DNA of 64,000 bases, from positions 32,001 to 96,000 of IMG/VR virus record IMGVR_UViG_3300003324_000465; one strand, given 5' to 3'. How positions within the stretch are numbered: position 1 is the stretch's first letter; each line of letters opens with the position of its first letter. A program made the position numbers and the translations under genes. This stretch comes from a virus. Positions 4,178 to 60,588 of the stretch are shown in pieces. The notes under the pieces are model-generated. The model saw only the letters and a list, made by a program, of their open reading frames with translations, was not told the origin of the DNA and searched no databases.

Positions 4178-4258
4178 TAGTATATCCTTTCTATGTGGAA
4201 AATTCGCGTTTTGAAATTCATTTTATAAAACTAGACTCTCCAGATTTTATTGTACCCC

Positions 4259-4552
4259 TTATGATAATAATGCGAGACACAATTCAGTCATGAGCGGCTT
4301 ATCTAGCTTTCCTTTACGCCATTCATAATAAAGCTCTTCATTATTAGGCAATTCACGAACTAGTCTGTATGCTGCGATACAGTCATCCCATATCCATGGA
4401 ATACCATTACGTTTATAGTAATCAAATTTTTCTTCTTGTCGTGTACACTTAGAAACATACATATCAGCCATTTCAAGTAGCTCTATAATATATTCATACA
4501 TAACGTATTCCTTTTGTAATAAGTGCGCGCATTTTATTAAAGATCGATCCAT
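4259..4552 (-). CDS. Hypothetical protein (true start probably MYEYII)
   Basis: ORF; AAGGA RBS precedes the internal Met. Confidence 0.55.
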   Translation of the reverse strand: MDRSLIKCAHLLQKEYVMYEYIIELLEMADMYVSKCTRQEEKFDYYKRNGIPWIWDDCIAAYRLVRELPNNEELYYEWRKGKLDKPLMTELCLALLS

Positions 4553-4746
4553 GTACCATCAATGTATTCTTGCATCTGTACATTTGTATTATCTGGTAAT
4601 AGTATATGCTCTATTAACATACCTACATATGTTTTAAAATACACAGTTAACGCACTATAATGAAATCTATACTTATATCCAGTTTGCAAAGCTAATTGTT
4701 CTGTAATAATCATTGTATTTTCTCCTATAATAATGCGCGGCGATTA

Positions 4747-4938
4747 TTATCTAGTAGTATTAAAAACATATCCATTGATAATTGTCTCGCCATTACGGTC
4801 TCTCAAGTACCATGGTCCATCTGATTGCTCATCTGCAATAGCTTGAGCATTACTTGGATCATCCGCTATAATAAGCATACAATCATAAACACGATCACAA
4901 GCATCACTCCAAAATGTGTAAATGCGTAAATTATCCAT
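4747..4938 (-). CDS. Hypothetical protein
   Basis: ORF with RBS. Confidence 0.65.
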   Translation of the reverse strand: MDNLRIYTFWSDACDRVYDCMLIIADDPSNAQAIADEQSDGPWYLRDRNGETIINGYVFNTTR

Positions 4939-5446: not shown

Positions 5447-5761
5447 TTAAGCACGAGCAAACGGAATACCAATAACATATCCCTTGCGTGTTTCATCATA
5501 TACAGTATAGTACGATCGTTTTGGCATCGTAGTAGCTAATAGTGTTGCGATGTGATCAAAATCAATATTCAGTGTATCAGGTATAAACATTAACCATTCC
5601 ATTACCTTTGTAAAGTGCTTTACTAATGGATTAGGCGCGCTGAAAATGCATTTGCATTCAGTTGTATTGATCATACCATAAACTTCAATTGCATTGCTTT
5701 TTTTATTAGTAGTCTGCGGTGTGCTATATTCTTGAGCAGTGATTTTTTTCACACTAGGCAT
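5447..5761 (-). CDS. Hypothetical protein
   Basis: ORF with AAGGA RBS. Confidence 0.65.
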   Translation of the reverse strand: MPSVKKITAQEYSTPQTTNKKSNAIEVYGMINTTECKCIFSAPNPLVKHFTKVMEWLMFIPDTLNIDFDHIATLLATTMPKRSYYTVYDETRKGYVIGIPFARA

Positions 5762-5786
5762 TGTTTATTCCTTTCTTACCTACTAT

Positions 5787-5963
5787 TCACGCGCGTGATA
5801 AACGCTCAGTTAAATCTGTAACAACACTAATATACTCTTCTGTTAGTTCTTCATACTGTTTCAACAATTGTTGATATTGGAGCAGTAATTCACGATGCTC
5901 CGCTTTCTCAAGTATAAGCTTTAAACGCAAATCAACAATCTCTAACTGATCCTCTTCATTCAT
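5787..5963 (-). CDS. Small coiled-coil protein (58 aa, not in ORF track)
   Basis: MNEEDQLEIVDLRLKLILEK..., AGGAG RBS overlapping the end of the TrxB-like gene. Confidence 0.6.
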   Translation of the reverse strand: MNEEDQLEIVDLRLKLILEKAEHRELLLQYQQLLKQYEELTEEYISVVTDLTERLSRA

Positions 5964-5965
5964 AA

Positions 5966-6868
5966 TCAGTCTCCTTTATTTTTAAGATATGCATGAATAA
6001 AAGATATTACTTGCGCTCCATCTCCTACTGCGCATGCTACCCGTTTCATTGAACCTGATCGTACATCTCCTATTGCAAAAATACCATCCTCATTTGTCAT
6101 CATTGTGTTATCGGTTATAATATACCCGTTATCGTCAAGCTGTATTGTCTCTGGGAGAAATGATGTATTAGGCGTACTACCAATGAAAACGAATATCTTC
6201 TTGCATGGTAAGCATAAAGGAAGACCATTATGCATAATTGTTAATGAATTATCAGATGTCTCTCTAACCAATGCATTTGTAAGAATATTAATTCTCTCAT
6301 GCACACATATACGTTTAACAAGATAATCAGACATGCTTTTACGAATATCATCCCCGCGAATTATTATAGATACCTTTTTTGCATGATCAGCTAAATACAA
6401 TGCGGCTTGTCCAGCACTATTAGCGCCGCCAATTATAACCACATGCTGATCTTTACATTCATCTGTATGATCAATAACATTTGTATCATACAATAAACCA
6501 TGAAGTTTGTCATTACCATTATTAAATTGCCGATATGTCATTCCTGATGCAATAATCAATGCATTATATACTAGTGTGTGCTCATTTGCTATAATGGTAT
6601 GACGTTTTGGATATATATCTATTACTTGGTCTTGAATAAAACTAACACCAAATTGCAGTGCTTGATCTACAGCGCGTTGTGTCATCTCTTTTCCAGAAAT
6701 AGCTGGATGTGAAAAGAAATTTTCAACTTTACTACTGCCGTATATTTGCCCCCCGTAATATGAATTTTTCTCAATTACTGCTGTACTCAACCCCTCGCTT
6801 GCGGCATAAATTGCAGCAGAAAGACCAGCAGGACCGGAACCAATAATGAGTACATCATATTTCTGCAT
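5966..6868 (-). CDS. trxB: Thioredoxin reductase-like FAD/NAD(P)H oxidoreductase
   Basis: IIGSGPAGLSAAIY (FAD), IGGANSAGQAA (NAD(P)H), GIFAIGDVRSGS; canonical CxxC absent. Confidence 0.85.
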   Translation of the reverse strand: MQKYDVLIIGSGPAGLSAAIYAASEGLSTAVIEKNSYYGGQIYGSSKVENFFSHPAISGKEMTQRAVDQALQFGVSFIQDQVIDIYPKRHTIIANEHTLVYNALIIASGMTYRQFNNGNDKLHGLLYDTNVIDHTDECKDQHVVIIGGANSAGQAALYLADHAKKVSIIIRGDDIRKSMSDYLVKRICVHERINILTNALVRETSDNSLTIMHNGLPLCLPCKKIFVFIGSTPNTSFLPETIQLDDNGYIITDNTMMTNEDGIFAIGDVRSGSMKRVACAVGDGAQVISFIHAYLKNKGD

Positions 6869-9968: not shown

Positions 9969-10697
9969 CTACCTATATACTCCATATTGTAATAATTGCT
10001 CTAATAAATCGCCGCGACTATTTAATAACTGTAAAAGTAATGTATCGTTTACATTCTTCTGCTCTATATCTTCTAACGCTTGCATAACAATTGGAAATTC
10101 TTGCTTCATTATCTGCTTTATTGCTAGTGCAATATCTCTATGTTCTTTTTGTACATCTTCCTTCGTACGCAATTGTATATAGTGAATCCACGAACGCAAT
10201 GTACCTGACATATATAATGTCGTTTGTGTAGTTAATGGAAGTATCATGCGTGCTACTTCTCTTGCTACACCAGCGTTAATAAGGTGTTTATATGTTATAA
10301 TAGCACGTTTTATTGATAAATCAACAAGTGTACTAGCATTTTCTGTTTCTGTATCATTAATCGGTATAAGCGGGTCAAATACATCTGTACTTGATTGTCT
10401 ATTTTTAACTGCCTGCTTGCGTAGTTCAATGGGCTCAAATTCTGTTACTTCTTTATACCGTTGACTTAGCTCCTGAAAAGTGAAACTACGATGCCTGAGC
10501 AATTGAGCCGATATAGCACGACTAGTCTTAATTTGAACGGTCATGTGTGCATGCTCAAATGGACTAAAATGAGCATTACGTAATAAATAACTAATAAGTC
10601 TTGTATCTTGACTATTTTGGTTATTTGACGATACTCTAGCGATATATAAAATCATTTTTTCTGCATTTGGAGTAACAGATACTAAATTAACTTCCAT
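9969..10697 (-). CDS. thyX: Flavin-dependent thymidylate synthase
   Basis: HFSPFEH and RHRSFTFQELSQRY (RHRx7S) motifs; GTLRSWIHY. Confidence 0.95.
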   Translation of the reverse strand: MEVNLVSVTPNAEKMILYIARVSSNNQNSQDTRLISYLLRNAHFSPFEHAHMTVQIKTSRAISAQLLRHRSFTFQELSQRYKEVTEFEPIELRKQAVKNRQSSTDVFDPLIPINDTETENASTLVDLSIKRAIITYKHLINAGVAREVARMILPLTTQTTLYMSGTLRSWIHYIQLRTKEDVQKEHRDIALAIKQIMKQEFPIVMQALEDIEQKNVNDTLLLQLLNSRGDLLEQLLQYGVYR

Positions 10698-50028: not shown

Positions 50029-50245
50029 ATTAGATATTACGGGAGTAAGTGGTACAGGTATTGTAGCAGAAGTGGTAGAATTTAGTGATGGTGTTTGTAT
50101 CGTTCATTGGATAGGACATATGACATTATCAAATGTTTCTTCTATTGTTATTTATAATTCGCGGGCGGATTTATTAGCAGTACATGGTCATAATGGAAAT
50201 ACAGTATTAGAGGAAATACATGGCGCTACAACAGAAATTAGATGA
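50003..50245 (+). CDS. Conserved phage hypothetical protein
   Basis: DITGVSGTGIVAE..EFSDG...HGHNG motif; start MKIY. Confidence 0.7.
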   Translation: MKIYNLNRKLDITGVSGTGIVAEVVEFSDGVCIVHWIGHMTLSNVSSIVIYNSRADLLAVHGHNGNTVLEEIHGATTEIR

Positions 50246-52805
50246 AGGCGATATAGCACTATTAGAAGTTATAGAAGATCCCGTTTGGCTAGGAGAGTTT
50301 CTTAGAAGTACAAATGATGGCGAAGTTGATAAAAAACTATGGCCTGCTAATAGATGGACATATAGAGATTATCAAAGACAGTTCTTGACTGATCAATACG
50401 CCTTTATTTTATATACTGGCGGTAGAAGCATTGGCAAGTGCTCTCCTGGCGGCTCAAGGATATATACAACACAAGGTTATCGCAAACTTAGTGATGTAGC
50501 ACAAGATAAAGCCTTTATTGCCTATACCTTTACTCCTGATATGTTACTAGAACAGCGTAGGGCTGTATGTGTATTAGACAAAAGGGATAAAGCTTATTCT
50601 ATACGTACAGAAGCGGGTCATGAATTTATTGGTACGAATAATCATCCTATTTTAACACCAGAAGGTTATAAGCTTATACGCGATCTTAATGTAGATGATT
50701 ATGTAGCAATCGCTACACATTTACCGCATGAAAGTACTCAAAGGGCATTTAGATGGCATGAATTGAGGATTTTTGGTTATATATCTTTAATAAAAGGATT
50801 TACTGTAGAGCAGCCCATAATACCACGATGGTCTTCAATAGGTAAAGAATTTGAATATATTGCAGATCAGTTGTTATTAAATTGGCATAAATCTATAGAA
50901 ACAGGAGCATATACATTTATACGGAAACTTGGAGGAAATTTTCCACATCCGTTAACATCTTTATTGAGACAAATAAGACAAGCTGAGAATTTGAAGCGTT
51001 ATGGTGTTATAAAACGTATACCTGATATTATAAAAGCTGAATGCCTTGAGAATATACAGATAATGCTTGAGTCTATGTTTTCACAGCATGCGGTACTATC
51101 ACAGAATAGCGTAATATTAAAAACATATTCAAGATTATTTGCACAAGACATACAAGAGCTACTTCTGAGATTTGGTATTGAATCTTCAATAAAACATACT
51201 ACTGTATCTTTATTAGATACCCGCGCTATTTATAAATTCTATACAACATTTAATTTACCCGGTATTGGTATAGGTAGATTAAAAGAACCATCAGCAATAA
51301 CACAACTAACGCCATTTATGCGCTTTGATCGTATTGTGCATAAATATCAAAGTCGTGTAGATGTACAAACATATGCAGTACATGTCTATGAGCATAATAA
51401 CTATATTGGTGATAATTTTTTTGTACATAATTCAGTTGTACTAGAAGATAAAATTGTACATGAGATTGTTAATGCTGATATCGAATTTCCGCCGGAAGAT
51501 CGCGAGTCAGTATTAGTTACACCTAATCAAGCGCAAATGACGCCGTTACTAGGTAAATTAAATGGTAGGTTTAATTCAAGTAAATTTTTGCGCAGTTATT
51601 TAGGTAAGGTTAATCGATCAGATGGTATTATGGAATTTCCAATCCAAGGAAAAAGTAGTAAACCTATGATATTTAATTTTCGTATTGCAGGAAGTAACGG
51701 GGAGCGCAATATGGTTGGCTTGCACATACCTAAAATACGTGCAGATGAGACACAATTATTCCCTCTATTAGCATGGACTCAGCTTATGCCTGCATTAAAT
51801 ACATGGCAAAAAGAAAAACAAATTGTTGCTGCTGGTGTACATAATGGTTTACGTAATAGTGTTTTATATTTGCTCGATTATCAAACACCGAAATATAAAA
51901 AATATAGAATACCGAGTCATAATAATCCATACTATACATACGAAGATGATATAGATAACATACGTAAATATGGTGGAGAGCAAGATGATCGTTATCAAAA
52001 CCTTGTATTAGGAAGGCCAGGAGCGGCTGCATTTCAAGTTATACCACGAGAAAGCATTATAACTGAAACATTTGCGTTTTCGCGGCAAGTATATAATTCA
52101 GGACATGTAAATAAAGGTATTAATTACGATGATGTACTACAAAGACCGTCACTACCAGAAGATACACAAACTGTTGTTATAGCTATAGATCCTGGATTTG
52201 TTGATCCCACCATTATACAAGTCATTGCGCGAGATAAAAAAGGTATATGGCGTACATATATACGTTATAGACTAATACGAATTGATTTTAATCAACAACA
52301 AAAAATTATTGATTGGGTAGCACACTATTATAATGCTGCGATAATAACAATAGATATTGGTGCTGGCGGTCAAGGTCCTTCTATAATGCATAATCTTATG
52401 CATGGAGATGAATATAAATCACGTAAATATGAATCACGCATGATAGGTGTTCAATTCAGTGAGCAAATAATATCAGGCTATGATGAAGAAGGTGAAGAAA
52501 TAAAGCAAGATACCAAAGGTTATGCAGCTAATGAATTAGCAAAAATAGTACAAGAAGGGCGTTTAATATTTAGCGAATTTGATCACGAAGGTGTATCGCA
52601 GCTTGAAAGGATAGCAAAACAAAAATCAACATCTGGCAAGGATAGATATTTTGTTTTAAATGATAAAGGTGCTGGCGCTGATGAGGAAGATCATATTTTT
52701 GCATCTTACATAACATTTGTTATGGCTATTAGGAATATTGTTACTAATCCACAATTGAAAAAACTAGGATCGCCTTCTAGCGCGATCACATATAATAAAG
52801 AATGA
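50220..52805 (+). CDS. terL: Terminase large subunit (intein-containing)
   Basis: GGRSIGK|S Walker A split by an intein, ADE Walker B, IDPGFVDPT RNase H nuclease motif; followed by portal. Confidence 0.9.
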   Translation: MALQQKLDEGDIALLEVIEDPVWLGEFLRSTNDGEVDKKLWPANRWTYRDYQRQFLTDQYAFILYTGGRSIGKCSPGGSRIYTTQGYRKLSDVAQDKAFIAYTFTPDMLLEQRRAVCVLDKRDKAYSIRTEAGHEFIGTNNHPILTPEGYKLIRDLNVDDYVAIATHLPHESTQRAFRWHELRIFGYISLIKGFTVEQPIIPRWSSIGKEFEYIADQLLLNWHKSIETGAYTFIRKLGGNFPHPLTSLLRQIRQAENLKRYGVIKRIPDIIKAECLENIQIMLESMFSQHAVLSQNSVILKTYSRLFAQDIQELLLRFGIESSIKHTTVSLLDTRAIYKFYTTFNLPGIGIGRLKEPSAITQLTPFMRFDRIVHKYQSRVDVQTYAVHVYEHNNYIGDNFFVHNSVVLEDKIVHEIVNADIEFPPEDRESVLVTPNQAQMTPLLGKLNGRFNSSKFLRSYLGKVNRSDGIMEFPIQGKSSKPMIFNFRIAGSNGERNMVGLHIPKIRADETQLFPLLAWTQLMPALNTWQKEKQIVAAGVHNGLRNSVLYLLDYQTPKYKKYRIPSHNNPYYTYEDDIDNIRKYGGEQDDRYQNLVLGRPGAAAFQVIPRESIITETFAFSRQVYNSGHVNKGINYDDVLQRPSLPEDTQTVVIAIDPGFVDPTIIQVIARDKKGIWRTYIRYRLIRIDFNQQQKIIDWVAHYYNAAIITIDIGAGGQGPSIMHNLMHGDEYKSRKYESRMIGVQFSEQIISGYDEEGEEIKQDTKGYAANELAKIVQEGRLIFSEFDHEGVSQLERIAKQKSTSGKDRYFVLNDKGAGADEEDHIFASYITFVMAIRNIVTNPQLKKLGSPSSAITYNKE
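50439..51431 (+). mobile_element. Intein (331 aa) in the TerL Walker A motif
   Basis: Begins CSPGGS, block B GTNNHPILT, ends FFVHN followed by Ser; internal LAGLIDADG-like remnant (DIQELLLRFGI). Confidence 0.92.
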
Positions 52806-57561: not shown

Positions 57562-57635
57562 ACAGAATGAAGTGTAATGGTAGCACCCGTATTTTGGGAA
57601 TATGGAGAGCAGTTCGATTCTGACATTCTGTACCA
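57562..57635 (+). tRNA. tRNA-Pro (TGG)
   Basis: Cloverleaf, TTTGGGA loop, imperfect T stem, CCA. Confidence 0.8.
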
Positions 57636-57871
57636 TTAAATAACATAGGCTATGCCAGTGTGTACGCTTAAGCAACAATGCTTCTCTGAATCAAGCACAT
57701 GTGAGAAGATGTTATTTATATCAGTGAATATAATGTAAGCACTTATAAGAGTGATTCCTTATAAGATAGACGCGGGCAAAATATTCAAAAGACAAGATCA
57801 TAATAGATTAAAATTTATTTCATCTCTATTGTTTATTACGGATAATATCAATCTATTATGATCATCATTAT

Positions 57872-57946
57872 GCGTCAATGATGTAATTGGTAGCATATTG
57901 CTCTCCAAAAGCAAGCGTTAGGGTTCAAATCCTTATTGACGTGCCA
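57872..57946 (+). tRNA. tRNA-Trp (CCA)
   Basis: Cloverleaf, CTCCAAA loop, GCCA end. Confidence 0.92.
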
Positions 57947-58083
57947 TATATAATATAGCGGTTTATAGAATTACAACGCTTACCAAACACCAAGCTATAA
58001 TACGTTCGATTCGTATATGGGCTAATGGAAAACCTCTCGCAAGAGAACTGCCCACATATTCTATAAGATATTCGTATTATATA
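57947..58083 (+). ncRNA. Y RNA-like module 1
   Basis: Terminal helix, AGCGG / ATATTC internal loop, second helix, TACAACG; contains T arm ATACG-TTCGATT-CGTAT. Confidence 0.75.
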
Positions 58084-58096
58084 AAACAAACACATA

Positions 58097-58207
58097 TACT
58101 GTAGCGGGAAAAATGCAATACAACGTTTATTTGATTAATAAAACACACTACGTTCAAATCGTACACTTGGGTTGGTTATCCCTTTTTGCTTTTTCATATT
58201 CACAGTA
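58097..58207 (+). ncRNA. Y RNA-like module 2
   Basis: TACTGT-AGCGG...TACAACG...ATATTC-ACAGTA; anticodon-like hairpin plus T loop TTCAAAT. Confidence 0.75.
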
Positions 58208-58234
58208 ATTATAATATTTGCGGGCAATATTTAC

Positions 58235-58307
58235 GGAAACATGGTGTAAGCAGCATACATCTAGGAATAGATGAGGCGTAATGGGTTGGACTCCCACGTT
58301 TCCATCA
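58235..58307 (+). ncRNA. tRNA-like RNA with a GGAA tetraloop in place of the anticodon loop
   Basis: GGAAAC/GTTTCC acceptor, D-like arm, CATCTA-GGAA-TAGATG, TGGG-TTGGACT-CCCA; ends ATCA, no CCA. Confidence 0.55.
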
Positions 58308-58312
58308 CATAC

Positions 58313-58440
58313 AATACTATGTAGCGGAAAAATCCTTTACAACGAATAACATATGCCTTGTTAATGTGGTGATACACGTAAAAATATTCTGCGATGCGCT
58401 ACAGTTACGCATTATAGGATTTTTATATTCGCATAGCATT
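58313..58440 (+). ncRNA. Y RNA-like module 3
   Basis: CTATGT-AGCGG-AAAAATCCT...TACAACG...AGGATTTTT-ATATTC-GCATAG. Confidence 0.75.
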
Positions 58441-58504
58441 CAAAAGAAAAAAAAACATTATTAAATGGTTTTATCGACTTGCCAAATACAAGTATAATAT
58501 TTAA

Positions 58505-58647
58505 TTTTCTGTAGCGGATGTCAGCGATTACAACGCATTACGAGCGGGTGATTGTAGGTTCGAGTCCTACTGTCTGTACCATGTATACAGACATAGCTTA
58601 ATGGCAAAGCACCTAAAATATATCGCGGGCAATTATTCACAGAAGAA
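58505..58647 (+). ncRNA. Y RNA-like module 4 (YrlA-type) containing a circularly permuted tRNA-Val(TAC)
   Basis: Same scaffold; interior order anticodon loop - T arm - acceptor 3' strand+CCA - acceptor 5' strand - D arm. Confidence 0.85.
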
Positions 58648-58657
58648 CAATGATAAT

Positions 58658-58750
58658 AAGCTGCTACAGCGGAAATACAAGTACAACGAATATTTTTAGA
58701 CAAAATTAACCGTAAACACCTTGTATTTAATATCCGTAGCAGCTTTTTTT
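58658..58750 (+). ncRNA. Y RNA-like module 5 (minimal), ending in a U-tract
   Basis: AAGCTGCTAC-AGCGG-AAATACAAG-TACAACG...CTTGTATTT-AATATCC-GTAGCAGCTT followed by a T-run. Confidence 0.75.
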
Positions 58751-58787
58751 ATGATTCATCAGCCAAGTATTCAAGAAAGGATTTTTT

Positions 58788-58989
58788 ATGCTAGATTTTT
58801 TTAAAGCAACAGAAGAAAATGGTTTGCGTTTTACTTCATGATGGTGATTATATGTGGATAACTGAAAACGAAGCATTTTCAGGACAGCCTATTATTGCTA
58901 CTGCAGTAATGTATAGGAATCATCCCTTAAGTGATTGGCAATTTGATGAAGAAAGTATCGATATACTAGATTCTAAGTATACTAAATAA
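58788..58989 (+). pseudogene. Small ORF broken by a 1-nt frameshift in a T7 run
   Basis: RBS-ATG frame stops after about 17 codons; deleting one T gives MLDFLKQQKKMVCVLLHD...SKYTK. Confidence 0.4.
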
Positions 58990-59031
58990 TTCGCGGGCAA
59001 TTTATAAACCGTAGCAAAGGAATAAAATAAC

Positions 59032-60588
59032 ATGAGAAAAAATTTAACACAGGGATCAAAGAAAACAGTCAGTACAAAGCCGGTGGCACCAGTAGCCATG
59101 GGAGTAGCTCATAATCCTAATTATCGGTCAACACCAGTATCTTCATTTGAAGGCAATACTAACTATAAGCTTGATCCAATTGCAACATTGAAACTGGTAA
59201 CTGCAAGTTCATTTTTTGGTGAGCCTTCTTTTTATGAAGGAAATACACGTACAGCGTTATTTGAACAGACAATTGACGCGGCCCTTGATTATGATTTTTA
59301 TGCGACACTTGATTGGGCTGGTGTATTACGTAATGCGTATTATATGCGCCTTAATCCTCAAATCATCATGACAAGAGCAGCAGTGCATCCAAAGCGTGGT
59401 GAGTTTACAAAACAATATCCCGGCGCATTTAATACATTTATGGAAATTGTTGCGAAAAGACCGGATGATCTTACTGCACAGGTAGAATATTACTTGTCAA
59501 AGTTTGAAGATCGTAAGGTTCATGGGGTTAAAGCCTCTCGTATGCCTGGAATTATGAAGCGTTCAATAGCACACCGTCTTGAGCAATTTAATCGTTATCA
59601 AATGGCGAAATATGCTAATCGTGGTATCGGTTTAATTGATATAGTTCGTTTAACACATGCTCATGGAGCATTAATTAACGAACTTATGAAAACTGGCGGA
59701 ATTAGTATCGATGAGGAAGACCAAACATGGCGTACTATGCGTAGCGCTGGTAAGTCATGGACAGAGATTATTAATTCAGGCATCACACTAACACACCAAG
59801 ATATACTTTTTCAAATGCGTTCTATTTTTGATTCTGTTAAGGGTGATACTGCTCAATATATTGCGGGCAAATTTCTTAATGGGGTCAAGAATGGTAAAAT
59901 GTTCCCATATCAGTATTATATTGCTTTTCAGCAATTGAGTGAGGATACATTCAGTAATAAGATACTAGCGTTAGATACACTTCAAGAAGCCCTTGATATG
60001 TCTATTCGAGAACAGCCAAAATTAGGCGGAAGTGTTGCGGTTGTGGCAGATAATAGCGGATCTATGAATAATCCACTTAAAGTAGACGGTCATCAAGTTA
60101 CAGCAGCGGAAGTAGCTAATTTATCTGCAATTATGACAGCCTACAATGCTACTGATGGAGATGTATTCTCGTTTGGTACCACGTTAGCAAAGTTATCATA
60201 TAGCAAGCGTGATGGTATAATGACAAATGCAAAACGGCTTGCTGATTTATCTACTGGATGGGGCACAAATATGGGATTGTTCTGGCAATACGCTATACAA
60301 CATAAAAAGAGTTATGATACCGTATTTGTATATAGTGATATGCAAGCTCTACCTGTTTCTGGATACGGTTATAACAACGAAGTAAGAAACATGTATGACA
60401 TTGTGAACGAATATCGCCGCAAGCTAAATCCAAAGGTAAATGTTTTCTACGTGCAAGTAGCAGGCTATGATAATAGTGTACAACCAGATAATACATATCG
60501 TGCAACTAACCTGTCTGGATGGACAGGTAAAGAGGTTATGTATGCTGCTGCTGTAAATGCTGTGTGGGATGAAGTAGATAGTAAATAA
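59032..60588 (+). CDS. Ro60/TROVE-domain RNA-binding protein with C-terminal vWA domain
   Basis: SSFFGEPSFY, R...YMRLNP, RPDD, YQMAKY, DIVRLTH, MFPYQY; vWA MIDAS DNSGSM, GT, VYSDMQ. Confidence 0.92.
   Translation: MRKNLTQGSKKTVSTKPVAPVAMGVAHNPNYRSTPVSSFEGNTNYKLDPIATLKLVTASSFFGEPSFYEGNTRTALFEQTIDAALDYDFYATLDWAGVLRNAYYMRLNPQIIMTRAAVHPKRGEFTKQYPGAFNTFMEIVAKRPDDLTAQVEYYLSKFEDRKVHGVKASRMPGIMKRSIAHRLEQFNRYQMAKYANRGIGLIDIVRLTHAHGALINELMKTGGISIDEEDQTWRTMRSAGKSWTEIINSGITLTHQDILFQMRSIFDSVKGDTAQYIAGKFLNGVKNGKMFPYQYYIAFQQLSEDTFSNKILALDTLQEALDMSIREQPKLGGSVAVVADNSGSMNNPLKVDGHQVTAAEVANLSAIMTAYNATDGDVFSFGTTLAKLSYSKRDGIMTNAKRLADLSTGWGTNMGLFWQYAIQHKKSYDTVFVYSDMQALPVSGYGYNNEVRNMYDIVNEYRRKLNPKVNVFYVQVAGYDNSVQPDNTYRATNLSGWTGKEVMYAAAVNAVWDEVDSK

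What the first reader, a model, noticed from the sequence alone, without database searches (positions are those of the whole stretch)
57947..60588. Ro60/TROVE gene preceded by an array of five Y-RNA-like modules with one scaffold and variable cargo
Seen: five units (57947, 58097, 58313, 58505, 58658) share one architecture: terminal helix, 5' AGCGG opposite 3' (A/T)TAT(T/C)C as an internal loop, a second helix of about 9 bp, invariant TACAACG, then a variable interior. The helix sequences differ between copies but keep their pairing (compensatory change), while the loop residues stay constant, as expected of a protein-binding scaffold. The interiors carry different tRNA parts: T arms, hairpins with 7-nt loops, and a whole permuted tRNA. 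Established: Ro60 (Rsr) binds the end-paired stem of Y RNAs; bacterial YrlA RNAs mimic tRNA, lie next to Ro60 genes and are known from some phages. Inference: a phage-encoded modular RNP in which one Ro60 ring is loaded with interchangeable tRNA-mimic RNAs, possibly as decoys against host tRNA-cleaving defences or as adaptors for nucleases or ligases. No RtcB ligase is visible in this window.
Basis: partly seen in the sequence, partly recalled or inferred. Interest (0 to 1): 0.92.

Follow-up and report, generated by a model that had tools for sequence, protein, structure and literature searches.

The report
Five Y-RNA genes beside phage Ro60
A phage carries five small RNA genes next to its Ro60 gene that share one conserved protein-docking stem but hold different interiors; the same design recurs beside Ro60 genes in many other phages and bacteria, so it is a widespread, under-described branch of the known Y RNA family.

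Summary
AGCGG-N9-11-TACAACG occurs five times (0.01 expected), all between tRNA-Trp and a Ro60 gene, and nowhere else in the 106.9-kb phage genome. Each unit can fold as outer helix P1 / AGCGG opposite (A)UAUUC / helix P2 of 9-11 bp / UACAACG / variable interior.

The helices differ between units but keep their pairing. The two closest reachable Ro60 relatives (52% and 48% identity) carry the same scaffold upstream of the gene.

Covariance models built from these units find hundreds of copies. Almost all lie on the Ro60 strand, beside Ro60 genes of other phages (Bacillus phage G among them) and of bacteria. Arrays of 5-7 are common. None appeared in 791 kb of control DNA.

Modules with a tRNA-like interior match Rfam YrlA significantly but below its threshold, and that model covers only P2 and the interior.

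The units are therefore best read as Y RNAs of the YrlA/YrlB superfamily that partner the phage Ro60, with a docking scaffold I did not find in Rfam 15 or in the papers I could search. Only unit 4 is a full tRNA mimic. Units 1 and 2 have T-arm-like hairpins only.

Binding to Ro60, expression and function are all untested. The kind is known; this is a new variant of it.

The parts
57872..57946 (+). tRNA-Trp(CCA) with encoded CCA. Unit 1 begins at the very next base. The same tRNA-Trp-then-module order is seen in relative L287.
57947..58083 (+). Unit 1. P1 57947-57956/58074-58083; AGCGG 57957-57961; P2 57962-57971/58058-58067; TACAACG 57972-57978. The interior has a T-arm-like hairpin and a branched stem. 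3' loop ATATTC 58068-58073.
58097..58207 (+). Unit 2. 6-bp P1; AGCGG 58103-58107; P2 has one bulged T; TACAACG 58119-58125. The interior has a T-arm-like hairpin (loop TTCAAAT). 3' loop ATATTC 58196-58201.
58220..58227 (+). GCGGGCAA motif preceded by a TATAAT-like box. It is a candidate phage promoter, and other copies flank the array at 57772, 58625 (inside the 3' strand of unit 4) and 58993 (ahead of Ro60).
58235..58307 (+). tRNA-shaped RNA between units 2 and 3. A 6-bp stem capped by GGAA replaces the anticodon arm. Neither ARAGORN nor Rfam calls it a tRNA.
58313..58440 (+). Unit 3. Core P1 58317-58322/58431-58436; AGCGG 58323-58327; 9-bp P2; TACAACG 58338-58344; 3' loop ATATTC 58425-58430. 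The interior has two hairpins with no clear tRNA parts.
58505..58646 (+). Unit 4, YrlA-type. AGCGG 58513-58517; P2 with one mismatch and one bulge; TACAACG 58529-58535. The interior runs small hairpin, T arm, acceptor-like stem carrying CCA, D arm. 3' loop TATTC 58634-58638.
   Evidence: (Rfam YrlA 30.1 bits, E 3.5e-4)
58658..58751 (+). Unit 5, a short YrlB-like hairpin. 10-bp GC-containing P1; AGCGG 58668-58672; 9-bp P2; TACAACG 58682-58688; 31-nt interior; 3' loop AATATCC. P1 is followed by a T-run, so it looks like a terminator.
   Evidence: (z = -5.4)
58819..58989 (+). 56-codon ORF between the array and Ro60. It has no Pfam match and is not conserved in L286 or L287. Whether it is a gene is open.
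59032..60588 (+). Ro60 (TROVE HEAT-repeat ring plus vWA domain), 518 aa.
   Evidence: PF25045 vWA_Ro60 33.6 bits over its cut-off; TROVE weak; homologues carry PF05731; phiLo Ro60 9KOP/9L5Y, E 1.2e-8; AF2 model with pLDDT 79.5 matches phiLo, D. radiodurans, Xenopus and human Ro60 over its full length

Best explanation
The five units are genes for small non-coding Y RNAs of the bacterial YrlA/YrlB superfamily, and they are the RNA partners of the Ro60 protein encoded just downstream. Shown here: each unit has the same two-helix scaffold, P1 / asymmetric internal loop (5' AGCGG opposite 3' UAUUC) / P2 of about one helical turn / UUACAAC junction. This scaffold is conserved with abundant compensatory changes, is found specifically beside Ro60 genes and on their strand, and overlaps the Ro60-binding end of known YrlA RNAs. 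Inferred: the conserved unpaired or non-canonical residues at both ends of the fixed-length P2 form the docking site for Ro60, while the variable interior is an effector-facing module. Unit 4 presents a tRNA-like domain (YrlA type). Units 1 and 2 present a T-arm-like hairpin plus other stems. Unit 5 is a plain hairpin (YrlB type) whose P1 doubles as a terminator. Also inferred: the RNAs are made within the phage tRNA cluster from phage promoters (the GCGGGCAA motif) and trimmed by tRNA-processing enzymes, since unit 1 starts at the base after the CCA of tRNA-Trp. They would then give several different Ro60 ribonucleoproteins during infection. By analogy with D. radiodurans, S. Typhimurium and Thermus phage phiLo, at least some would tether Ro60 to a host 3'-5' exoribonuclease such as PNPase to handle structured or misfolded RNA.
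For: Motif statistics: 5 hits against 0.01 expected, and only these five in the genome. The scaffold is the MFE fold or within 0.8 kcal/mol of it. Pairing is unit-specific. The two closest reachable Ro60 relatives, L286 (52%) and L287 (48%), carry 2 complete units plus one cut by the contig end, and 4 units, with the same motifs upstream of Ro60; L287 is syntenic (tRNA-Met, Pro, Trp, then modules). On the plain MAFFT alignment of 11 units, P1 is 97.9% paired with 8 of 10 pairs changed on both sides. Model R1 gave 184 hits at E<1 in 238 further Ro60 loci, 181 of them on the Ro60 strand. Sixty of those hits are 90.2% paired, against 54% when shuffled and about 40% when slid, and all 20 pairs show compensatory change. 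The loop residues are near-invariant: G 60/60 and C 58/60 in AGCGG, U 60/60 and C 60/60 in UUAC, and AUUC at 58-60 of 60. Model R2, built only from other loci, scores the five window units at 47-67 bits. It finds 221 hits at E<0.01, all on the + strand, in 75 of 80 viral Ro60 loci by my tally. Whole-genome specificity: in the 497.5-kb Bacillus phage G genome all 7 hits lie within 7.7 kb around the TROVE gene, 5 of them in the unannotated gap just upstream. In two bacterial genomes of about 6 Mb the only hits are just upstream of Ro60. Control: 0 hits at E<=1 in 791 kb of unrelated viral DNA that contains the linear motif by chance. Rfam YrlA matches unit 4 (30.1 bits, E 3.5e-4) and related modules (36-45 bits), placing YrlA's first helix and GNCGAA..G region on P2 and the UUAC junction. 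The protein is a true Ro60. Literature: YrlA-like RNAs lie near Ro60 in 254 bacteria and 22 phages (PMC4201824). Thermus phage phiLo Ro60 binds two upstream Y-like RNAs and assembles with host PNPase (PMC12135203).
Against: There is no expression, RNA-end or binding data for this phage or for any member of the scaffold family. No unit reaches the Rfam YrlA gathering score (69 bits), and four of the five give no YrlA match at all. The published bacterial Ro60-binding motif GNCGAAN0-1G is not conserved in the five units; only unit 4 has AGCGAUUAC. The alignments used for the large covariation counts were fitted to the model, which favours the structure. The interiors of U2, U3 and U5 have no thermodynamic support, so 'cargo' may be too strong a word for them. 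No partner nuclease, ligase or CCA-adding enzyme is encoded by the phage. The tether model therefore rests wholly on analogy.
Confidence: 0.8

Rival explanations
1. The modules are Ro60-independent elements of the phage tRNA cluster. They would be stem-closed spacers acting as processing punctuation (RNase P/Z/E substrates), or free-standing tRNA-fragment decoys, and would merely sit near Ro60 because Ro60 lies in the tRNA array.
For: Unit 1 abuts the CCA of tRNA-Trp, and the array lies inside a cluster of 10 tRNA genes. Phage Ro60 genes generally sit among tRNA genes. Earlier notes of this scan report other stem-closed modules in the tRNA spacers of this genome.
Against: The scaffold tracks Ro60, not tRNAs. 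The window has 10 tRNAs over 7 kb but modules only in the 800 nt before Ro60. Phage G has tRNA genes annotated both upstream and downstream of gp540 in the fetched stretch, yet 5 of its 7 modules fill the tRNA-free gap directly upstream of the TROVE gene. Bacterial chromosomes carry modules only upstream of Ro60. The motif variant also follows the Ro60 subfamily: UACAAC in all 11 units of the three loci with Ro60 at 48% identity or more, and UACAUC or UACUUC elsewhere.
Confidence: 0.08
2. The modules are cis-acting leader elements through which Ro60 controls its own expression, by binding its own transcript or by attenuation, rather than stable trans-acting RNAs.
For: Most modules lie within a few hundred nt upstream of Ro60 on the same strand. 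The P1 of unit 5 plus its T-run looks like a terminator 290 nt before the Ro60 start.
Against: Many loci carry the arrays downstream of Ro60, for example L160, L146, L164 and L193 at 5600-6500 with the gene ending near 5580. There are up to 7 copies with different interiors, some complete tRNA mimics. In the window a separate promoter-like motif (58993) and an ORF lie between unit 5 and Ro60. Known homologues (YrlA, YrlB, phiLo Yrl1 and Yrl2) are stable trans-acting RNAs (PMC4201824, PMC12135203).
Confidence: 0.06
3. The repeats are a non-functional or selfish DNA feature, such as recent tandem duplication or miniature inverted-repeat elements, and the apparent structure is incidental.
For: There are five similar units in tandem with inverted-repeat ends.
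Against: The helix sequences are unrelated between units while the loops are identical, which is the opposite of what recent duplication gives. Compensatory changes occur at all 20 pairs across 60 sequences. Strand bias is 221 of 221. The pattern is conserved across Ro60 proteins only 36-52% identical.
Confidence: 0.01

Closest known systems
YrlA (Rfam RF02553; Chen et al. 2014, PMC4201824), the tRNA-mimicking bacterial Y RNA bound by Rsr/Ro60
   Same: It is encoded next to Ro60 on the same strand, and its ends pair to close the RNA. Unit 4 has the same order of small hairpin, T arm, acceptor-like stem and D arm. Rfam YrlA matches unit 4 and related modules significantly, mapping its first helix and GNCGAA..G region onto P2 and the UUAC junction.
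   Different: Scores are well below the gathering threshold (30-45 against 69 bits). The GNCGAAN0-1G motif is not conserved in the five units. An outer helix P1 and an invariant AGCGG/UAUUC internal loop lie outside the Rfam model. Four of the five units lack the tRNA-like domain.
YrlB / Yrn2 type Y RNAs (S. Typhimurium, M. smegmatis, D. radiodurans; PMC4201824)
   Same: These are second, simpler Y RNAs encoded beside YrlA and Ro60 and processed from a common precursor. M. smegmatis YrlB has a possible T arm, like U1 and U2. Several are long hairpins with a small loop, like U5.
   Different: Known species have about two Y RNAs, whereas here there are five sharing one strict scaffold. No sequence model of YrlB was available for a test.
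Thermus phage phiLo Ro60 with Yrl1 and Yrl2 (PMC12135203; PDB 9KOP, 9L5Y)
   Same: A phage-encoded Ro60 with Y-like RNAs just upstream of its gene. It is the closest solved structure to the window protein. It shows that a phage Ro60 binds such RNAs and can assemble with host PNPase.
   Different: It has two RNAs, defined by a CGAA motif in a large internal bulge. The proteins are about 25% identical in tblastn and 18% in the Foldseek alignment. I did not scan the phiLo RNAs with R2.
Bacillus phage G TROVE gene gp540 and its unannotated upstream gap
   Same: gp540 is 39% identical to the window Ro60. Five modules with the same architecture (AGCGG, P2, UUACUUC, AUCUC) lie directly upstream and two more lie nearby.
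   Different: The junction and 3'-loop letters differ (UUACUUC and AUCUC against UUACAAC and UAUUC). R1, trained on the window subfamily, missed them. None is annotated in the record.

Membership tests
Y RNA (Ro60-associated ncRNA) | Encoded adjacent to a Ro60/TROVE gene, on the same strand | tested here: met
   The units lie 290-1085 nt upstream of the Ro60 ORF on the + strand. The same holds in related loci.
Y RNA (Ro60-associated ncRNA) | About 80-150 nt, with 5' and 3' ends paired in a long stem interrupted by an internal loop or bulge that holds conserved residues | tested here: met
   The units are 88-142 nt. P1, loop and P2 are supported by folds, unit-specific pairing and covariation.
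Y RNA (Ro60-associated ncRNA) | Physically bound by Ro60 and, in bacteria, dependent on it for accumulation | not testable with these tools
   Needs RIP, EMSA or genetics.
Bacterial YrlA | Conserved GNCGAAN0-1G motif near the 5' end (PMC4201824) | tested here: not met
   At the equivalent place only U4 reads AGCGAUUAC; U1, U2, U3 and U5 do not. In the wider family the consensus there is close to (G)NCGAUUAC. The site therefore looks homologous but diverged.
Bacterial YrlA | Match to Rfam RF02553 at its gathering score (69 bits) | tested here: not met
   U4 scores 30.1 bits (E 3.5e-4). U1, U2, U3 and U5 give no match at E<=10.
Bacterial YrlA | tRNA-like domain with T arm, closed acceptor-like stem and D arm | tested here: met
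   Met for U4 only. U1 and U2 have just a T-arm-like hairpin.
tRNA | Recognised by tRNA models with a standard cloverleaf order | tested here: not met
   ARAGORN calls nothing inside the units. Rfam tRNA gives 19.4 bits against a gathering score of 29 on part of U4.
Ro60 / TROVE protein | HEAT-repeat ring plus C-terminal vWA domain | tested here: met
   PF25045 is over its cut-off and PF05731 is weak. Homologues carry PF05731. The AF2 model aligns full-length with Ro60 structures 9L5Y, 9KOP, 2NVO, 1YVP and 9NEN.

The most novel reading that the evidence does not exclude
The P1 / AGCGG-UAUUC loop / one-turn P2 / UUACNNC scaffold is a general 'address tag' for a large clade of phage and bacterial Ro60 proteins. 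Genomes would use it to load one Ro60 ring with up to seven different cargo RNAs: tRNA mimics, T-arm-only RNAs and plain hairpins. Each cargo would direct the particle to a different enzyme or RNA target, making a natural, modular and reprogrammable RNP platform that phages deploy alongside their tRNA arrays.
Probability: 0.35. Interest if true: 0.8.

Novelty: new variant of a known kind. Interest (0 to 1): 0.6.

Why it matters
Y RNAs are the least understood part of the Ro60 system. In bacteria only a handful have been studied, and the Ro60-binding site is defined by a short, loosely conserved motif.

This work gives a sharply defined, covariation-supported docking scaffold shared by hundreds of Ro60-linked RNAs that Rfam does not call at its threshold. 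It also shows that arrays of 5-7 modules with different interiors are common.

That makes 'what does each Y RNA recruit?' a testable question. Cultured systems are at hand: Bacillus phage G on B. megaterium, Acetatifactor muris DSM 23669 and a Bacillus isolate.

It also shows that a 1-kb 'empty' gap in a well-known jumbo phage holds five unannotated RNA genes.

Tried and rejected
- The closest Ro60 relatives (P0002, P0004, P0005, P0008; 50-53% identity) could not be fetched. Only L286 and L287 were reached, through genome contigs.
- **blastn against phages:** the locus found nothing in the phage collection.
- **Protein query in viral contigs:** a single-protein query found nothing. The alignment query gave relatives of 42% identity or less.
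- **Metagenome contigs:** nothing closer than 43% identity.
- **Linear motif scan:** GTAGCGG-N8-14-TACAACG in viral contigs returned only scattered single chance matches. I reused these loci as a negative control.
- **Exact motif in distant loci:** it is absent from Ro60 loci of 36-42% identity, which first suggested a private motif. The covariance models showed that the scaffold is conserved with altered letters.
- **R1 and phage G:** R1 missed phage G; R2 found it.
- **Listeria phage A511:** a relative of CKA15, which has three abundant ncRNAs near an Rsr-like gene (PMC12282133). It has no R2 hit, so that expression evidence cannot be transferred.
- **Phage-encoded enzymes:** RtcB and the PolyA_pol (CCA-adding) family are absent from the genome. 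The T4 Rnl1 search is uninformative because its controls did not ring.
- **Promoters and terminators:** sigma-70 promoter and terminator scans show no enrichment.
- **Reviews:** the two Wolin-lab reviews (PMC10870794, PMC6047535) are not held. I cannot exclude that the scaffold or the arrays are described there.
Full report
**Setting.** The window is bases 32001-96000 of a 106,876-bp IMG/VR virus record with direct terminal repeats. The finding lies in a tRNA cluster: ARAGORN tRNA genes between 56586 and 63882, and Rfam. The ORF at 59032-60588 (518 aa) is a genuine Ro60.
- It matches Pfam vWA_Ro60 above the cut-off and TROVE weakly.
- Its homologues carry PF05731.
- phmmer finds Thermus phage phiLo Ro60 in the PDB at E 1.2e-8.
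- An AlphaFold model (mean pLDDT 79.5) aligns full-length with phiLo, D. radiodurans, Xenopus and human Ro60 structures.

**The observation.** AGCGG-N(8-14)-TACAACG matches five times, all on the + strand, at 57957, 58103, 58323, 58513 and 58668. Shuffles give 0.01. The rest of the genome has none.

Reading the sequence, every unit has the same parts in the same order:
- an outer helix P1 of 6-10 bp;
- AGCGG on the 5' side opposite ATATTC (U1-U3), (T)TATTC (U4) or AATATCC (U5);
- a second helix P2 whose 5' strand is 9-11 nt;
- TACAACG;
- an interior of 31-86 nt.

The scaffold is the MFE structure of U1, U2 and U4, and costs only 0.2 and 0.8 kcal/mol in U3 and U5. The helices have unrelated sequences in different units, yet each 5' strand pairs best with its own 3' strand. 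Over 11 units, cognate against non-cognate duplex energy is -9.5 vs -2.4 kcal/mol for P1 and -8.4 vs -1.5 for P2.

**Close relatives.** A scan of genome contigs gave two short contigs binned into a soil TM6 MAG, with Ro60 at 52% (L286) and 48% (L287) identity. Both carry the same scaffold upstream of Ro60 on the same strand.

L287 is syntenic: tRNA-Met, tRNA-Pro, tRNA-Trp, then four modules.
- The first module starts three bases after the tRNA-Trp.
- One module has AGCAGG in place of AGCGG.
- Two modules have complete tRNA-like interiors.
- The last is a short hairpin followed by a T-run, like U5.

On the plain MAFFT alignment of 11 units, P1 is 97.9% paired and 8 of 10 pairs change on both sides.

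**The wider family.** A covariance model of the 11 units (R1) found 184 hits at E<1 in 238 further Ro60 loci from viral contigs, metagenomes and genomes. Of these, 181 are on the Ro60 strand, mostly within a few hundred bases of the gene.

The 60 best hits (A5) are 90.2% paired, against 54% for shuffled partners and about 40% for slid partners. All 20 pairs show compensatory changes. This alignment was fitted to the model, which favours the structure.

Their unpaired residues are near-invariant: A-G-C-(G)-G, U-U-A-C-(A/U)-U-C and N-U-A-U-U-C.

A second model built only from these foreign hits (R2) gave the following.
- It scores the five window units at 47-67 bits and finds nothing else in the phage genome.
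- It finds 221 hits at E<0.01, all on the + strand, in 75 of the 80 viral loci by my tally.
- It finds 155 more at E<1e-4 in 95 other loci, 151 of them on the Ro60 strand.
- Arrays of 5-7 occur in L160, L146, L164, L193, L176, L151, L188, L189 and L180.

**Specificity controls.**
- In the whole 497.5-kb genome of Bacillus phage G, all 7 hits lie within 7.7 kb around the TROVE gene gp540. Five fill the unannotated 1-kb gap just upstream.
- In two bacterial genomes (Bacillus sp. Brlt_9 and Acetatifactor muris DSM 23669), the only hits are directly upstream of Ro60.
- In 791 kb of unrelated viral DNA that contains the linear motif by chance, there are none at E<=1.

**Relation to known Y RNAs.** Chen et al. 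(PMC4201824) found YrlA-like RNAs beside Ro60 in 254 bacteria and 22 phages. They are characterised by a GNCGAAN0-1G motif near the 5' end and a tRNA-like domain. Each species studied also had a second, simpler Y RNA (YrlB, Yrn2).

Rfam YrlA matches U4 at 30.1 bits (E 3.5e-4, gathering score 69) and no other unit. It matches tRNA-like modules of L322 at 36-45 bits. It found nothing at the gathering score in 16 viral loci and nothing in the phage G gap.

In those alignments, YrlA's first helix and GNCGAA..G region fall on P2 and the UUAC junction. The wider-family consensus there reads roughly (G)NCGAUUAC. The scaffold is therefore homologous to the Ro60-binding end of YrlA. P1 and the AGCGG/UAUUC loop lie outside the Rfam model, and in the window subfamily the CGA letters have been lost while UACAAC is fixed.

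The junction letters follow the protein subfamily: UACAAC in all 11 units of the three closest loci, UACAUC in most others, and UACUUC in phage G. This fits co-evolution with Ro60.

Thermus phage phiLo Ro60 has been shown to bind two upstream Y-like RNAs and to assemble with host PNPase (PMC12135203).

**The interiors.**
- **U4** is a YrlA-type tRNA mimic: small hairpin, T arm, acceptor-like stem carrying CCA, D arm.
- **U1 and U2** each hold a hairpin with a T-loop-like 7-nt loop. U1's interior folds somewhat better than shuffles (z -1.9).
- **U2, U3 and U5** interiors fold no better than shuffled sequence.
- **U5**, L287_D and the L286 units are short hairpins of the YrlB kind.

'Variable cargo' is thus a fair description, but 'tRNA parts in each' is not.

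**Expression signals (inferred).** GCGGGCAA occurs 16 times in the window (0.8 expected), 14 of them on the + strand, usually 2-5 nt after a TATAAT-like box. Copies precede tRNA-Trp (57772), follow U2 (58220), sit inside the 3' strand of U4 (58625) and precede Ro60 (58993). I read this motif as a phage promoter that divides the array into transcription units, with U5's P1 plus T-run as a terminator. Sigma-70 and terminator scans are not enriched.

**Mechanism.** Shown: a conserved, covarying scaffold that is specific to Ro60 neighbourhoods. Inferred: Ro60 docks on the conserved residues at both ends of the one-turn P2. The interiors face other factors, so the phage makes several kinds of Ro60 particle.

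By analogy with published systems, these would act with host exoribonucleases on structured or misfolded RNA during infection. The phage itself encodes no RtcB or CCA-adding enzyme. The Rnl1 search was uninformative.

**Verdict.** The feature is real, statistically strong and correctly recognised as Y-RNA-like. It is not unique to this phage. It belongs to a widespread branch of the YrlA/YrlB superfamily that Rfam does not call at its threshold, and I found no description of its docking scaffold or multi-module arrays in the papers I could search. Two key reviews were not available.

Noticed in passing
window 2492, 12336, 22418, 29530, 46907, 49198, 55232, 56204, 57772, 58220, 58625, 58993, 59863, 62891 (+); 32261, 63985 (-): GCGGGCAA occurs 16 times (0.8 expected), 14 on the + strand. 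It is usually preceded within 2-5 nt by a TATAAT-like box and followed by TTAT. It is probably a phage-specific promoter or start-site motif.
   Followed up: partly
window 58235-58307: A tRNA-shaped RNA lies between units 2 and 3. Its anticodon arm is a 6-bp stem capped by GGAA and its T loop reads TTGGACT. Neither ARAGORN nor Rfam calls it.
   Followed up: partly
window 50220-52805: The large-terminase ORF (861 aa) appears to carry an intein with a LAGLIDADG homing-endonuclease domain. The Pfam Intein_splicing match is just under its cut-off, LAGLIDADG_3 is over its cut-off, and Terminase_6C is weak.
   Followed up: no
L286 181-275 and L287 2240-2330: A conserved element lies between modules in both close relatives. 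It has an AAGGAG Shine-Dalgarno sequence plus ATG and a short ORF (...GVTKL(W/R)IPHLLT...) that runs into the next module. It is nearly identical at the DNA level in part, so peptide and RNA readings cannot be told apart. It is absent from the window.
   Followed up: partly
L366 (Bacillus phage G, NC_023719) 4200-4883, also 2723-2884 and 10305-10375: The unannotated 1-kb gap upstream of TROVE gene gp540 holds five scaffold modules (AGCGG, UUACUUC, AUCUC), and two more lie nearby. None is annotated in the record.
   Followed up: yes
L146 281-922: A ROOL RNA (Rfam RF03087, 277 bits) lies in the same tRNA/Ro60 neighbourhood of another viral contig that also has six scaffold modules downstream of Ro60.
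   Followed up: no
L286, L287 (LDIY01000027, LDIY01000019): The closest reachable Ro60 relatives sit on 5-6 kb contigs binned into a soil 'candidate division TM6' MAG. L287 is syntenic with this phage (tRNA-Met/Pro/Trp, modules, Ro60), so these contigs are probably phage DNA that was mis-binned, or a prophage.
   Followed up: partly
window 58819-58989: A 56-codon ORF lies between unit 5 and Ro60. It has no Pfam match and is not conserved in L286 or L287.
   Followed up: partly
window 57562-57635: ARAGORN calls a tRNA-Pro(TGG) here, but Rfam's tRNA model does not report it at its gathering score.
   Followed up: no
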